53,998 nucleotides of DNA. It comes from Escherichia phage vB_EcoM_DE15. Made by a program: the position numbers and the translations under genes. The stretch lies in sequence record NC_079184.1, one strand, 5' to 3'. Position 1 is the first letter of the stretch; the number at the start of each line of letters is the position of its first letter. Below are positions 26,890 to 51,976 of the stretch, in pieces. The notes beneath the pieces were generated by a model. It had not been told where the DNA came from. It worked only from the letters and a program-made list of their open reading frames with translations, and did not search any database.

Positions 26890-27495
26890 ATGTCTTGTAT
26901 GACTCAAGTTGTTGCTGTAAAGCGAGTGCATCCTAATGCGAAATTACCTGTGTACGCTACTGCTGGCGCTGCTGCTGCTGACGTTTGCACTATCTCCAAC
27001 AGCACTGTTGTTATCAATCCCGGCTGCTCTGCTGTTTTCGATACTGGCCTCCAGTTCGAGGTTCCAATTGGATACGAACTCAAAGTGCATAGCCGTTCTG
27101 GTCATGGCTTTAAGTCTGGTATTCGCCTGGCAAACTGTACAGGGATTCTGGACTCCGATTATCGTGGTAATCTTATGGTTAAGCTGCACAACGATTCGGA
27201 CACAGCCTTTGTGGTTCAGCCAGGTGAACGTATTTGTCAGGTGCAAGTTAGTAAAGCTACTCAACACCATTTCGTCGAAGTTGACCGCCTGAATGCAACT
27301 GGTCGTGGTGAAGGTGGATTTGGTTCTACTGGACGTGTAGAAGTTGGTGAGCATGGCAACAGTCGTGTAGCACCTGGCAGCTACGACCCAAGTATTACTG
27401 TGCCGTCGAATGGTTCACACTCACACATCATCACTGGCCCAAGTGGAGTCTACGACGTAGGAACTCCAACCCACAACCCCAACATTACCAAGTAA
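26890..27495 (+). CDS. dut: dUTPase with ~50-aa C-terminal extension
   Basis: GILDSDYRGNLMV (motif III) and RGEGGFGSTG (motif V). Confidence 0.75.
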   Translation: MSCMTQVVAVKRVHPNAKLPVYATAGAAAADVCTISNSTVVINPGCSAVFDTGLQFEVPIGYELKVHSRSGHGFKSGIRLANCTGILDSDYRGNLMVKLHNDSDTAFVVQPGERICQVQVSKATQHHFVEVDRLNATGRGEGGFGSTGRVEVGEHGNSRVAPGSYDPSITVPSNGSHSHIITGPSGVYDVGTPTHNPNITK

Positions 27496-27514: not shown

Positions 27515-27721
27515 ATGTTAGAACAGTTGGAAGAACTTCTTTCACATCTTAATGCGGAAGATAACGAAATGGCCTTAGAGTTTAAGGCCAAGTTGAAACA
27601 ACTCCAGGATAAAGCAGACAAAGATGCCTTGTGGCGTGAGTGTCTGGTATCCGGTGGAGTTGATAATTGGTCCTGGTATTCCGAATCCCTTCAGGAGTAT
27701 TGGGACACCTACGGCTATTAA
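27515..27721 (+). CDS. Hypothetical protein (68 aa)
   Basis: ORF. Confidence 0.4.
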   Translation: MLEQLEELLSHLNAEDNEMALEFKAKLKQLQDKADKDALWRECLVSGGVDNWSWYSESLQEYWDTYGY

Positions 27722-28123: not shown

Positions 28124-28309
28124 ATGCGCACAATACAATGTCCTAACTGCCATTATGAAATTGCAGAAGATGATTTCATAACGCAACAATGTCCTATCTG
28201 TGATTCATATATGCCACTAAACCGCCTGTATTTAAAGGCCGATTCTGGTTTAGGCAGCATCATTCGCATCAATCCCGTGCAAACTCAGCCATTAGTGGAT
28301 TGTGATTAA
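28124..28309 (+). CDS. Small zinc-ribbon protein
   Basis: CPNCHYEI...CPICDSYMP. Confidence 0.4.
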   Translation: MRTIQCPNCHYEIAEDDFITQQCPICDSYMPLNRLYLKADSGLGSIIRINPVQTQPLVDCD

Positions 28310-45116: not shown

Positions 45117-45475
45117 TTGAGCAGGAACATCAAGCTCTAAAGCAAATTGCTGAACTTCTGCCAACCGGATACGTGAAGAGTGTGCCTTACAGCATAAGGA
45201 AGGATGTATCGTTTGAGTTTAATGGTGTGACAGTTAAAATGTCTGCACTGTACTTAAACGAACCTTTAAACTGTTACATGTTTGACTTAGCGTGGGGAGC
45301 CACGAATAAAATATTCGGAATCCCTATTCGATGTGGTATTGATATTCTTAAGCAATACAAGACTCCGCTTCCAAACATGTATGCAGCTAACACAGTATTC
45401 CCTGGTGAAGAAATAACAAGCTACCGACAACTCTACCTATTCATTATTGACGAGAGTGTACTCGAACGTGGCTAG
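45113..45475 (+). CDS. Baseplate assembly protein (hypothetical)
   Basis: ORF. Confidence 0.35.
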   Translation: MIEQEHQALKQIAELLPTGYVKSVPYSIRKDVSFEFNGVTVKMSALYLNEPLNCYMFDLAWGATNKIFGIPIRCGIDILKQYKTPLPNMYAANTVFPGEEITSYRQLYLFIIDESVLERG

Positions 45476-46262
45476 TCATAACAATAACCAAAATGCTCCT
45501 GACATTAACACAAGTTATCCAGGGCACATTTACAACTTCGATGCAGCAACCCAAACTTGTGAGGTCCAGCTTGCAATCGAAAACTTGTTCGTGGGTTATG
45601 CCGAAGCCTACACCTTGCAGCCAAAACAAAGGTTGCAGGGTGTTCCTGTTCAGTTTATTCAGGGTGGCGGCTGGAGTTTAACTCATCCGGTTCCAGATGG
45701 AACCCCATGCTACGTCCATTTCTCCCAGCGAGGAATAGACCATTGGTTGTCGGAGAACAAGAGTAGTGCTGGCTTAGTAAACGGGCGACCTGCCCCAGAG
45801 TTCAGCCAACTGTTCTCCCACAATGCTGCCGTATGTACTATCGGGACTCAGCCTTTGACCAAAGTTATTCCAGGATTTAATGGTGGAGTAACAGAGCTGC
45901 GTAATGCGGACAGGAGCCAAAGACTAACATTGCATGGTGATGGTTTAATTGAAATCATTACTGGTGCTGCGAAGATTCAAATCACAAAAGATTCGGAGAT
46001 TCTCGTTGAAGTTACGTCGCAAGCTACAGTTAAAGCGCCGCAGATTACATTGGATGGCGATACGACCGTTACAAAATCTTTAACAGTGTTAGGTGGCATG
46101 GCTGTATCTGGGACCAAAGATGGCTCTACTGCAACGTTCACTGGTGACTTCAAGATGGACGGCAACATGGTTCAAACTGGCTCCCTCACTCTTAATGGTA
46201 TTAAGGTTGATGGTCATACTCACACTAACCCAGAAGGCGGCGATGTTGGGCCGATGAAATAA
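45447..46262 (+). CDS. Baseplate spike-like protein (start uncertain, TTG 45447 or GTG 45468)
   Basis: ORF, position. Confidence 0.35.
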   Translation: MTRVYSNVASHNNNQNAPDINTSYPGHIYNFDAATQTCEVQLAIENLFVGYAEAYTLQPKQRLQGVPVQFIQGGGWSLTHPVPDGTPCYVHFSQRGIDHWLSENKSSAGLVNGRPAPEFSQLFSHNAAVCTIGTQPLTKVIPGFNGGVTELRNADRSQRLTLHGDGLIEIITGAAKIQITKDSEILVEVTSQATVKAPQITLDGDTTVTKSLTVLGGMAVSGTKDGSTATFTGDFKMDGNMVQTGSLTLNGIKVDGHTHTNPEGGDVGPMK

Positions 46263-50947: not shown

Positions 50948-51976
50948 ATGGCTAAAGGTTATTCTTTAGATGCGTTGGTTAAGGAGAAGTGGTCGAGATA
51001 TGCCGAATCCTTAACCAGTGGGTTGGACTTTAATGACTTCTACGGTGTGGAAAAGTCCGGCATATACATGGTTGCTGCCAATAATATAGCCACTACACTG
51101 CTAAACATGCCAGAAAAGGTTGCTGGTGTACTCGAGGTAATGCCCTGGACATCAACGGGGCTAAGCATCCAAAGGTACACTACATACAACCTTGCCAGAC
51201 TATATGTTCGCACAAAGGAGTCCCCAAATGTGGACTGGGGTCCGTGGAAGCTTCAGATAGACGCATCAAACATATTTAATACCATATACCCAATTGGTAT
51301 TGTATTGCAGTTTGATAACGCCACCAACCCAAACAATTCATTCCCAGGCACAGTTTGGGAACAAATCCTAGACGGTCGCTCTGCTCGTTCTGCAACTTCT
51401 GCTGAAGCTGGTACAACTGCTGGTCAAATTGGTTCCACTGGTGGCTCTGATACCGCATCTCTTGCTGTGGCAAACATTCCTGGACACACTCACGGAATGC
51501 AAAACCACACGCACAGTATTGCAGCACACACCCACACGATGGCCCACACCCACTCCATCAACCACGACCACGGTGCCGTGACGTCAAGTTCCAGTGGTGC
51601 ACATACACACAGTGTGTCCGGTACTGCCGCAAGCAACGGTGCTCACACGCACACAGCCGGAACTGGTTACACTGGTGCAGGTAACTACATTGGTGCAGGT
51701 ACTGGGACTGGCCTGGGTACGATGACCACTAACTCTGCTGGTGCGCACACACACAGTGTAAGCGGAACTGCTGCGTCTGCTGGTGCACACACCCACTCTG
51801 TAGACTTACCTAACTACACAGGTACAAGTGGTGGCTCCAGTGCTGCCAATACGGGCGGTACGGCGTTAACCACTGGTGGGCCAAGCAACAATGAAACAAC
51901 CTCAACCGGAAGCGGCACAGCCTTCACTGTGACCAACGCCGTTCACTACTATGCCTTCTGGAAACGGGTGGCTTAA
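50948..51976 (+). CDS. Tail fiber / receptor-binding protein with His-x-His repeats
   Basis: GHTHGMQNHTHSIAAHTHTMAHTHS and three GAHTHSVSGTAAS-like units. Confidence 0.55.
   Translation: MAKGYSLDALVKEKWSRYAESLTSGLDFNDFYGVEKSGIYMVAANNIATTLLNMPEKVAGVLEVMPWTSTGLSIQRYTTYNLARLYVRTKESPNVDWGPWKLQIDASNIFNTIYPIGIVLQFDNATNPNNSFPGTVWEQILDGRSARSATSAEAGTTAGQIGSTGGSDTASLAVANIPGHTHGMQNHTHSIAAHTHTMAHTHSINHDHGAVTSSSSGAHTHSVSGTAASNGAHTHTAGTGYTGAGNYIGAGTGTGLGTMTTNSAGAHTHSVSGTAASAGAHTHSVDLPNYTGTSGGSSAANTGGTALTTGGPSNNETTSTGSGTAFTVTNAVHYYAFWKRVA

What the first reader, a model, noticed from the sequence alone, without database searches (positions are those of the whole stretch)
26890..27495. dUTPase with a ~50-aa C-terminal extension
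Canonical motifs III and V are present, but the protein continues ~50 residues beyond motif V with a Gly/Ser/His-rich tail. Phage dUTPases with extra segments can have moonlighting regulatory functions.
Basis: partly seen in the sequence, partly recalled or inferred. Interest (0 to 1): 0.35.

Follow-up and report, generated by a model that had tools for sequence, protein, structure and literature searches.

The report
Phage dUTPase with fibre-like histidine tail
This is an ordinary-looking phage dUTPase carrying a real, selectively maintained 53-residue tail whose one conserved feature is the His-x-His motif that phage tail fibres use to bind metal; the tail's function is untested.

Summary
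ORF 26890-27495 (+) encodes a 201-aa homotrimer-type dUTPase with all five motifs. It runs 52-53 residues past the point where E. coli Dut and the NCBIfam profile end. The window is Escherichia phage vB_EcoM_DE15 (Chaseviridae), where this gene is already annotated as a dUTPase.

The tail is not an artefact:
- Dozens of relatives keep it in frame.
- It is under purifying selection (dN/dS 0.03-0.30).
- It is assembled from modules that recombine between phages.
- Some near-identical phages have lost it (150-aa forms).

The new point is that 13 of 17 unalignable tail types in this clade carry G-[S/A]-H-x-H-[S/G]-hydrophobic motifs. The same motif is repeated nine times in this phage's own tail fibre, and in solved fibres and spikes it binds Fe or Zn on a three-fold axis. 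About 30 other dUTPase C-terminal add-ons have none. DE15 itself has one intact site (NGSHSHIIT, residues 174-182) and lacks the usual terminal GAHTHGAERYK site.

Best guess, inferred and not shown: the three tails of the trimer form a small metal-clamped stalk. Monomer AlphaFold models leave the tail unstructured, and no profile-level homology to fibres was found. A regulatory moonlighting role remains possible but has no direct support. Moderate interest; a new variant of a known kind.

The parts
26890..27495 (+). dut gene: 201 codons plus stop. Homotrimer-type dUTPase core (residues 1-148) followed by the C-terminal tail.
   Evidence: ORF list. Pfam PF00692 E 6.5e-23. NCBIfam NF001862 at 148 bits against a cut-off of 103. 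PHROG 135 dUTPase E 2.6e-60. AF2 core pLDDT above 90, and Foldseek match to E. coli Dut 6hde with TM 0.87 and rmsd 1.9 A.
26962..26985 (+). Motif I, AGAAAADV (residues 25-32)
   Evidence: Alignment with E. coli Dut; coordinates.
27091..27108 (+). Motif II, SRSGHG (residues 68-73)
27142..27168 (+). Motif III, GILDSDYRG (residues 85-93), including the catalytic Asp90 equivalent
   Evidence: D88, D90 and G93 are invariant in 87 homologues.
27223..27240 (+). Motif IV, GERICQ (residues 112-117)
27304..27333 (+). Motif V, RGEGGFGSTG (residues 139-148), the mobile C-terminal arm that closes the active site
   Evidence: role of motif V from the review PMC12524310.
27334..27492 (+). C-terminal tail, residues 149-201 (RVEVGEHGNSRVAPGSYDPSITVPSNGSHSHIITGPSGVYDVGTPTHNPNITK). 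It is a mosaic of three modules.
   Evidence: Lies beyond the end of every dUTPase profile. The 5' part resembles ST32, the middle resembles the P0271 type, and the 3' end resembles Pel53 at the DNA level. dN/dS against ST32 is 0.30, with dS 0.52 in the tail versus 0.09 in the core. AF2 monomer pLDDT is below 50 for residues 154-201.
27409..27435 (+). The single intact HxH site, NGSHSHIIT (residues 174-182; His177 and His179)
   Evidence: Matches the family consensus G-[SA]-H-[TS]-H-[SG]-[AIM]. The strict motif occurs only 5 times in the six-frame translation of the whole window: 4 in the tail fibre and 1 here. Its probability under shuffles of the tail is 1.5e-4.
27457..27492 (+). Alternative terminal module, VGTPTHNPNITK (residues 190-201). 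It stands in place of the usual second HxH site, GAHTHGAERYK-COOH.
   Evidence: Shared at the DNA level with Pel53 (...VGTPTHNPSIGK*) and found internally in the P0001/P0271 type.

Best explanation
The gene encodes a functional-looking homotrimeric dUTPase of a Carltongylesvirus coliphage (vB_EcoM_DE15), fused at its mobile C-terminal arm to a lineage-specific accessory tail.

The tail is a modular peptide. Its conserved functional element is the tail-fibre-type motif G-S/A-H-x-H-S/G-hydrophobic. DE15 has one copy; most relatives have two, separated by a variable spacer of about 20 residues.

Proposed mechanism (inferred, not shown): the enzyme is an obligate trimer, so three tails are held together. 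Their HxH pairs would supply six imidazoles that chelate one metal ion (Fe2+ or Zn2+) octahedrally on a three-fold axis. Solved fibre and spike trimers do this (T4 gp37 and gp12, P2 gpV, R-pyocin fibres). The result would be a short metal-clamped stalk that tethers the three C-terminal arms, and in two-site relatives it would display the variable spacer as a tip loop.

The appendage is dispensable for dUTP hydrolysis and for phage viability, because 150-aa forms exist in near-identical phages. It is nevertheless selectively maintained where present and is exchanged between phages by recombination.

Shown here: dUTPase identity, the reality of the tail, its modularity, purifying selection, and clade-specific HxH enrichment.
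Inferred: trimer-dependent metal binding, the stalk structure, and any downstream role.
For: Core identity.

The tail is real and selected:
- In-frame tails occur in 8 or more named phages and many metagenomic contigs.
- dN/dS within tail types is 0.11 (GJ1 vs BSBP01), 0.03 (SA91KD vs FXie) and 0.30 (window vs ST32).
- Tail dS is 3-6 times higher than core dS.

Modularity:
- Linker, spacer and terminal modules are recombined in different combinations.
- (SH)n copy number varies between P0276 and P0271.

HxH signal:
- 42 HxH were counted in 39 tails, against 10.9 +/- 3.0 (maximum 22) in composition-preserving shuffles. There are none in 121 cores.
- 13 of 17 mutually unalignable tail types carry HxH.
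- None of about 30 other C-terminal add-ons on dUTPases outside this clade carry it.
- The flanking context is G at -2 in 33 of 42 sites, S/A at -1, and a hydrophobic residue at +4. This is the context of the phage's own fibre repeats, GAHTHSVSG.
- 7 of 15 tails hit Pfam PF03335 'Phage tail fibre repeat', best E 0.0021. It is the only recurrent family, and the bona fide fibre itself scores only E 0.03.
- A GJ1-type tail and the fibre both hit PHROG 36248 and PHROG 2097.

Metal chemistry of HxH in trimers: PMC6116203 and PMC11705849.
Against: - The window's own tail has only one HxH. P(at least one HxH given its composition) is 0.21, so its motif is convincing only in family context.
- The window's tail gives no Pfam or PHROG hit.
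- All fibre-repeat hits of relatives are below the Pfam gathering score.
- A profile of the tails finds nothing in the PDB.
- There is no DNA similarity to the phage's fibre gene, so the resemblance is at motif level only.
- AF2 monomer models leave the tail at pLDDT below 50 for both the window protein and a GJ1-type protein. No trimer or metal model could be run.
- In some relatives the HxH starts only 5-6 residues after motif V (P0025, P0035, P0040). That may be too short to reach a three-fold axis while motif V is closed over an active site. This is my geometric reasoning and was not computed.
- Loss of the tail in Mangalitsa, PYps23T, flopper and many 150-aa cluster members shows that any function is conditional.
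Confidence: 0.4

Rival explanations
1. Partner-binding (moonlighting) tail. The tail is an intrinsically disordered, fast-diversifying peptide that binds a host or phage protein, for example a defence or repair factor, independently of any metal-clamped trimeric fold. The HxH would then be part of a linear binding motif.
For: - Lineage-specific appendages on dUTPases are repeatedly tied to second functions. Examples are staphylococcal phage motif VI with Stl, the T5 six-residue loop, the mycobacterial loop with AdnAB, and the Drosophila 28-aa C-terminal extension (PMC12524310, PMC10815766, PMC13309787).
- The tail is unstructured in monomer models.
- Module swapping, high dS with low dN/dS within types, and presence/absence polymorphism resemble host-interaction genes.
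- The gene abuts a variable island that carries a gp5.9-like RecBCD inhibitor.
Against: - No partner is known.
- There is no motif VI insertion.
- This idea does not explain why unalignable tails converge on the fibre-type G-S/A-H-x-H-S/G-hydrophobic context.
- No PADLOC or anti-defence evidence was sought or found.
Confidence: 0.27
2. Near-neutral by-product. The 3' end of dut borders a hot spot for insertion and deletion of small accessory genes. Read-through into junction sequence, plus slippage of (TCA CAC)n, would create variable tails with no function.
For: - The downstream gene content differs among close relatives. The 68-aa gene is present in DE15, ST32 and flopper, and absent in GJ1, Mangalitsa, JL1 and SA91KD.
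- Tails are truncated or lost in flopper and Mangalitsa, with remnants of the old 3' end visible.
- (SH)n length varies.
Against: - dN/dS of 0.03-0.30 with many synonymous differences shows selection on the peptide.
- The GAHTHGAERYK end is kept in dUTPases whose cores are only about 60% identical (P0029, P0040).
- 13 of 17 independent tail types carry HxH, against 0 of about 30 add-ons elsewhere.
Confidence: 0.15
3. Link to virion or fibre assembly. The fibre-like tail lets the dUTPase trimer interact with, or donate metal to, the HxH-containing tail fibre or spike, or be packaged into the virion.
For: - The same motif context occurs in the phage's fibre (9 copies) and its spike apex.
- The gene sits at the boundary between the nucleotide-metabolism module and the packaging/structural module.
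Against: - There is no sequence homology beyond the motif and no DNA similarity.
- Tail-less relatives have the same genome architecture.
- No virion-proteome report of the dUTPase was found in the searchable literature.
Confidence: 0.05
4. Annotation or sequencing artefact: a missed stop or a frameshift creates a false extension.
For: None beyond the prior chance (about 8%) that 53 codons stay open.
Against: - The same frame is kept in independent genomes.
- The tail shares 34 residues with ST32 and its terminal module with Pel53.
- The exact protein is deposited.
Confidence: 0.01

Closest known systems
Homotrimeric dUTPases (E. coli Dut, PDB 1dud/6hde; phage T5 Dut, 8qky)
   Same: All five motifs are present and the alignment is colinear. 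The predicted fold matches, with TM 0.87 (normalised by target) and rmsd 1.9 A to 6hde. The NCBIfam equivalog score is above its cut-off.
   Different: There are 52-53 extra residues after motif V. E. coli Dut ends 1-4 residues after it. T5's lineage-specific element is an internal 6-residue loop, not a tail (PMC10815766).
Staphylococcal phage trimeric Duts (80alpha, phi11) that derepress SaPI via Stl
   Same: These are phage dUTPases with a hypervariable, lineage-specific extra segment that is dispensable for catalysis.
   Different: Their extra segment, motif VI, is an internal insertion. It is absent here, since the PDB 80alpha Dut aligns only to residues 3-104 and the E. coli alignment has no insertion. 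There is no Stl/SaPI system in this host, and no HxH is reported for them.
Drosophila melanogaster dUTPase 28-residue C-terminal extension; mycobacterial C-terminal loop next to motif V
   Same: These are species-specific additions at or after the mobile C-terminal arm, with suspected or shown non-catalytic roles (PMC12524310, PMC13309787).
   Different: Their sequences are unrelated, and none is described as histidine-motif based or as modular and recombining.
HxH metal sites of trimeric phage fibres and spikes (T4 gp37 and gp12, P2 gpV, phi92 spike, R-type pyocin fibres); Pfam PF03335 Phage_fiber repeat
   Same: The local motif G-S/A-H-x-H-S/G-hydrophobic is identical, and it sits in a protein expected to be a three-fold symmetric homotrimer. 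The same phage uses the motif 9 times in its fibre and once in its spike apex.
   Different: - Here the motif is attached to a cytoplasmic nucleotide-metabolism enzyme, not a virion fibre.
- The window has only one copy.
- All profile hits are below threshold, and the window's tail has none.
- No metal or trimeric fold has been demonstrated.

Membership tests
Homotrimeric dUTPase (Pfam PF00692 / NCBIfam NF001862 dUTP diphosphatase) | Profile score above the curated cut-off | tested here: met
   PF00692 scores 81.4 bits against a cut-off of 22. NF001862 scores 148.1 bits against 103, and TIGR00576 scores 139.6 bits against 102.55.
Homotrimeric dUTPase (Pfam PF00692 / NCBIfam NF001862 dUTP diphosphatase) | Five conserved motifs I-V in canonical order, including the motif III Asp and the motif V P-loop-like arm | tested here: met
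   Motifs lie at residues 25-32, 68-73, 85-93, 112-117 and 139-148. D31, R69, S70, G71, D88, D90, R114, Q117 and R139 are invariant in 87 homologues.
Homotrimeric dUTPase (Pfam PF00692 / NCBIfam NF001862 dUTP diphosphatase) | Beta-jelly-roll dUTPase fold | tested here: met
   The AF2 core has pLDDT above 90. Foldseek matches 6hde, 8hrv and 1dup with E around 1e-14 to 1e-13, target-normalised TM 0.87-0.92 and rmsd 1.6-2.1 A.
Homotrimeric dUTPase (Pfam PF00692 / NCBIfam NF001862 dUTP diphosphatase) | Homotrimer assembly and dUTP hydrolysis | not testable with these tools
   Inferred from family membership. Only monomer prediction was available, and no assay can be run.
Phage tail-fibre HxH repeat / trimeric HxH metal site (Pfam PF03335; T4 gp37, gp12, P2 gpV type) | HxH in the context G-S/A-H-x-H-S/G-hydrophobic | tested here: met
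   NGSHSHIIT at residues 174-182. The strict motif is found only here and in the tail fibre in the six-frame translation of the window.
Phage tail-fibre HxH repeat / trimeric HxH metal site (Pfam PF03335; T4 gp37, gp12, P2 gpV type) | Profile match above the Pfam gathering score (20 bits) | tested here: not met
   The window's tail has no hit. Relatives' tails reach a best E of 0.0021 and 13.5 bits or less for the one whose score was printed. A profile of the tails against PDB sequences gives no hit.
Phage tail-fibre HxH repeat / trimeric HxH metal site (Pfam PF03335; T4 gp37, gp12, P2 gpV type) | Three chains in parallel on a three-fold axis, with six His around one Fe/Zn ion | not testable with these tools
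   Monomer AF2 only, with the tail at pLDDT below 50. No multimer or metal modelling is available.
Phage tail-fibre HxH repeat / trimeric HxH metal site (Pfam PF03335; T4 gp37, gp12, P2 gpV type) | Part of a virion fibre, spike or baseplate protein | tested here: not met
   The motif is fused to a dUTPase in the ligase / dNMP kinase / dut gene block. It has no DNA or alignable protein similarity to the fibre gene.
Moonlighting staphylococcal-phage Dut (Stl antirepressor) | Variable motif VI inserted between motifs IV and V | tested here: not met
   The alignment with E. coli Dut across residues 11-149 is colinear, with only a single-residue gap and no insertion.
Moonlighting staphylococcal-phage Dut (Stl antirepressor) | Binding of an Stl-type repressor or another partner | not testable with these tools
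   No interaction data exist, and there is no SaPI/Stl context in a lytic coliphage.

The most novel reading that the evidence does not exclude
The dUTPase trimer carries a miniature fibre-tip-like needle.
- An ascending strand would bear one HxH site, a variable tip loop would follow, and a descending strand would bear a second HxH site. Metal ions on the three-fold axis would clamp the needle.
- This would be a scaled-down analogue of the T4 gp37 needle, grafted onto a cytoplasmic enzyme.
- The recombining tip loop would recognise a variable intracellular target, such as a host defence or repair factor. Alternatively, metal binding would gate closure of the motif V arms, so that activity or a second function is switched by metal.
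- This would be the first use of the fibre HxH architecture outside virion proteins.
Probability: 0.12. Interest if true: 0.7.

Novelty: new variant of a known kind. Interest (0 to 1): 0.4.

Why it matters
dUTPases are a recurring example of enzymes whose small lineage-specific appendages carry second functions (Stl derepression, the T5 loop, the mycobacterial loop with AdnAB). This work defines a whole clade of phage dUTPases (Chaseviridae) with a C-terminal module that is selectively maintained and exchanged by recombination.

Its only invariant logic is a motif that makes chemical sense only in a trimer, and the enzyme is an obligate trimer. If the tails do bind metal, three things follow:
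- It would show that the fibre HxH clamp is a portable trimer-dependent module.
- It would give a simple, purifiable model system for that chemistry.
- It would open the question of what an accessory, fast-swapping appendage on a nucleotide-pool enzyme does during infection.

If they do not bind metal, the finding is an ordinary annotated dUTPase with a variable tail.

Tried and rejected
- **Tail profile against 5.8 billion proteins.** Profile A1, built from 15 tails, gave no hit at E <= 10. The window tail alone gave 'no candidate shares three 5-residue words'. Neither search recovered even the known dUTPase relatives, so both are uninformative rather than negative.
- **Tail profile against PDB sequences.** No hit at E <= 10.
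- **tblastn of the tails against 50,697 phage records.** The window tail and a GJ1-type tail hit only Chaseviridae dUTPases, apart from two chance-level hits at E around 10. The module is therefore not shared with any other annotated phage protein at BLAST sensitivity.
- **Recent copy of the phage's own fibre gene.** Rejected. Only chance matches of 13 nt or less were found, and protein similarity is confined to the HxH units.
- **AF2 monomer models.** The window protein and a GJ1-type relative both leave the tail at pLDDT below 50. This is inconclusive for a fold that would depend on a trimer and a metal.
- **Tandem DNA repeats in the tail.** None was found. The only array lies in the Ala-rich motif I region, 26955-26977.
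- **Promoter or terminator signals inside the tail-coding DNA.** None was found. No competing ORF overlaps 27334-27495 on either strand.
- **IMG/VR scan.** It gave only 10 loci, mostly the same genomes.
- **Literature.** No paper links dUTPase with HxH, or discusses the Chaseviridae or phiEcoM-GJ1 dUTPase tail.
- **Motif VI (staphylococcal type).** Absent.

Full report
**1. What is there**

- Pfam places a dUTPase domain on residues 16-148, E 6.5e-23.
- The NCBIfam equivalog NF001862 'dUTP diphosphatase' scores 148 bits against a cut-off of 103, and its 150-position profile ends at residue 149.
- PHROG 135 (dUTPase) gives E 2.6e-60.
- E. coli Dut (1dud) aligns colinearly, query 11-149 to 12-151 of 152.
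- All five motifs are present: I AGAAAADV 25-32, II SRSGHG 68-73, III GILDSDYRG 85-93, IV GERICQ 112-117, V RGEGGFGSTG 139-148.
- An AlphaFold2 model built on 87 homologues has pLDDT above 90 through the core. It superposes on solved trimeric dUTPases, for example E. coli 6hde at E 1.4e-14, target-normalised TM 0.87 and rmsd 1.9 A.

The chain then continues for 53 residues: RVEVGEHGNSRVAPGSYDPSITVPSNGSHSHIITGPSGVYDVGTPTHNPNITK. The composition is G 7, S 7, V 6, P 6, T 5, H 4, so 'Gly/Ser/His-rich' is approximately right.

**2. Where it comes from**

The exact protein is WAX24567.1 of Escherichia phage vB_EcoM_DE15, a 53,998-bp genome, annotated as a dUTPase. The nearest relatives are Carltongylesvirus / Chaseviridae coliphages, including ST32, phiEcoM-GJ1, flopper, Bp7 and Mangalitsa. 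The gene follows a DNA ligase and a dNMP-kinase-like gene, and it precedes small accessory genes and the large terminase.

**3. The tail is real, modular and selected**

Nucleotide identity to relatives is 93-97% through the core. In nearly all of them it collapses within about 20 nt of the end of motif V, near gene nt 446-466; only ST32 stays alignable further, to nt 547.

Tail length is polymorphic among near-identical phages:

| Phage | Protein length (aa) |
|---|---|
| Mangalitsa, PYps23T | 150 (no tail) |
| flopper | 169 |
| ST32 | 195 |
| SA91KD, FXie-2024a | 197 |
| JL1 | 198 |
| GJ1, BSBP01, SKA49 | 199 |
| DE15 (this window) | 201 |
| Pel53 | 209 |

The protein cluster holding the window's protein (clustered at 90% identity, with SKA49 Dut as representative) contains forms of 150, 185, 195, 201, 203 and 205 aa.

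The tails are built from interchangeable modules:
- a linker (RVELGQHERPHIPDG, RVEVGQYDPSLIVPSNG, or a version with a 10-residue insert);
- a first HxH site (SHSHSIS);
- a spacer of about 20 residues with at least three unrelated variants;
- a terminal site (GAHTHGAERYK-COOH, or the alternative GTPTHNP(N/S)I(T/G)K-COOH).

Different phages combine these modules differently. DE15 itself is a mosaic. Its 5' part resembles ST32, its middle resembles the P0271 type, and its last 12 codons resemble Pel53 at the DNA level.

Within alignable tail types the peptide is under purifying selection:

| Pair | Tail dN/dS | Tail dS | Core dS |
|---|---|---|---|
| GJ1 vs BSBP01 | 0.11 | 0.34 | 0.10 |
| SA91KD vs FXie | 0.03 | 0.71 | 0.21 |
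| DE15 vs ST32 | 0.30 | 0.52 | 0.09 |

The counts are small (9-16 synonymous changes per tail) but consistent. The tail is translated and constrained, and its alleles are older than the backbone they sit in, which is the signature of recombination.

No other ORF, promoter-like site, terminator-like site or tandem repeat explains the region. An artefactual stop is excluded.

**4. The one conserved feature**

Across 121 homologues, 39 have tails of 12 or more residues.
- These tails hold 42 HxH motifs, against 10.9 +/- 3.0 (maximum 22) in shuffles that keep each tail's composition. The 121 cores hold none.
- Successive histidines are most often two residues apart (39 of about 90 intervals).
- The flanks are not random: G at -2 in 33 of 42 sites, S/A at -1 in 31, T/S between the histidines in 26, S/G at +3 in 28, and A/I/M/L/V at +4 in 38.
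- Related sequences inflate such counts, so I clustered the tails of the Chaseviridae-like clade. This gave 17 mutually unalignable types, 13 of them with HxH.
- As an outside control, about 30 other C-terminal add-ons on dUTPases were recovered at 50% clustering from 1.8 billion representatives. None has an HxH.

The motif is the one used by the phage's own virion proteins.
- ORF 50948-51976 matches PHROG 2097 'tail fiber protein' at E 2.4e-40 and Pfam Gp10_C at E 1.2e-7. It has nine HxH, four of them as GAHTHSV.
- The spike ORF 45447-46262 ends in ...DGHTHTNPEGGDVGPMK.
- In the six-frame translation of the whole window (107,992 codons), the strict pattern G[SA]H[STND]H[STGI][IVMAL] occurs five times: four in the fibre and once in the dUTPase tail. 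It arises in 1.5e-4 of shuffles of the tail.
- Seven of 15 tails hit Pfam PF03335 'Phage tail fibre repeat', best E 0.0021. It is the only recurrent family, and all hits are below the gathering score. The genuine fibre itself reaches only E 0.03.

Caveats specific to this window:
- DE15 has a single intact site, NGSHSHIIT at residues 174-182.
- It lacks the common terminal GAHTHGAERYK site.
- Its tail gives no profile hit.
- One HxH is expected in 21% of shuffles of its composition.

The case therefore rests on the family, not on this one sequence.

**5. Mechanism**

Established knowledge: in trimeric fibres and spikes (T4 gp37, P2 gpV, the phi92 spike, R-pyocin fibres, and T4 gp12 with Zn), three symmetry-related HxH pairs give six histidines that bind one Fe or Zn octahedrally on the three-fold axis (PMC6116203; PMC11705849). 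Trimeric dUTPases form their active sites from two or three subunits, with the mobile C-terminal motif V closing the site (PMC12524310).

Inference: a motif that works only in a trimer has been appended to an obligate trimer. The simplest reading is that the three tails assemble into a short metal-clamped stalk. In two-site relatives the variable spacer would form the tip between an ascending and a descending strand.

I put this at about 0.4. The reasons for not going higher are:
- Monomer AF2 models leave the tail unstructured.
- No homology to solved fibres is detectable.
- In some relatives the HxH lies only 5-6 residues after motif V, which may be too close to allow both closure of motif V and convergence on the axis.
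- The tail is dispensable in nature.

What the stalk would be for is open. Possibilities are trimer stabilisation, metal-gated control of the motif V arms, or display of a recognition loop.

**6. Rivals**

- **Disordered partner-binding (moonlighting) tail, 0.27.** It fits the precedents (staphylococcal motif VI with Stl; the T5 loop, PMC10815766; the mycobacterial loop with AdnAB, PMC13309787) and the evolutionary pattern. It has no direct support and does not explain the fibre-type motif context. The staphylococcal motif VI insertion itself is absent.
- **Neutral by-product of the adjacent indel hot spot, 0.15.** It is supported by the variable downstream gene content and by visible truncations. 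It is contradicted by dN/dS and by motif conservation across cores only about 60% identical.
- **Link to fibre assembly or the virion, 0.05.** Speculative.
- **Sequencing artefact, 0.01.** Refuted.

**7. Known or new**

The gene is already annotated as a dUTPase in GenBank, and C-terminal or internal lineage-specific appendages on dUTPases are a known theme. I found no paper connecting dUTPase with HxH motifs or commenting on the Chaseviridae tail. The module occurs in no other annotated phage protein at BLAST sensitivity. I therefore rate it a new variant of a known kind, with moderate interest (0.4). It offers a concrete and cheaply testable hypothesis (metal content of full-length versus truncated enzyme). 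It is not a demonstrated new mechanism, and this particular phage carries a reduced one-site version.

Noticed in passing
window 27515-27721 (+): The 68-aa ORF directly downstream of dut matches Pfam PF25708 'Phage T7 gp5.9 RecBCD inhibitor' (E 1.7e-9, 37.9 bits against a cut-off of 24.5) and PHROGs 6234 and 4790 'host RecBCD nuclease inhibitor'. It is present in ST32 and flopper, where it is annotated hypothetical. It is absent in GJ1, Mangalitsa, JL1 and SA91KD, so the dut 3' end borders a variable accessory-gene island.
   Followed up: partly
window 50948-51976 (+): Tail fibre protein of 342 aa with nine HxH motifs, four of them as GAHTHSV (PHROG 2097 E 2.4e-40; Pfam Gp10_C E 1.2e-7). It is a predicted multi-metal fibre shaft.
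   Followed up: partly
window 45447-46262 (+): A central spike-like protein that has a spike N-terminal domain (Pfam PF18352, E 2.2e-18) and ends in KVDGHTHTNPEGGDVGPMK. This is an HxH apex of the P2 gpV type.
   Followed up: no
proteins P0070, P0079, P0085; P0082, P0102, P0142; P0192, P0196, P0211; P0169, P0191, P0193 (metagenomic dUTPases): At least four other unrelated families of 40-95-residue C-terminal add-ons occur on dUTPases outside this clade. Examples are a 'KVGQRVRLSP...' module of about 65 aa, a Burkholderia-type module of about 95 aa, an '...AVYEE..KLR.AGY...' module, and a '...REGCTV.V.GVGD' module. None has HxH, and none was characterised.
   Followed up: no
L010 (PP952070.1, 'Staphylococcus phage Pel53'): This record is labelled with host Staphylococcus hyicus, yet it is a Chaseviridae genome whose dut gene is 90% identical at the nucleotide level to those of coliphages. 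The host label looks doubtful.
   Followed up: no
window 28124-28309 (+): A 61-aa ORF with two CxxC pairs (CPNC...CPIC), zinc-ribbon-like, just upstream of the large terminase. It is conserved as a hypothetical protein in relatives.
   Followed up: no
P0276 vs P0271/P0001 (dUTPase tails): The first HxH site varies as SHSHS versus SHSHSHS (203 versus 205 aa). This is consistent with slippage of a (TCA CAC)n microrepeat adding or removing histidines.
   Followed up: partly
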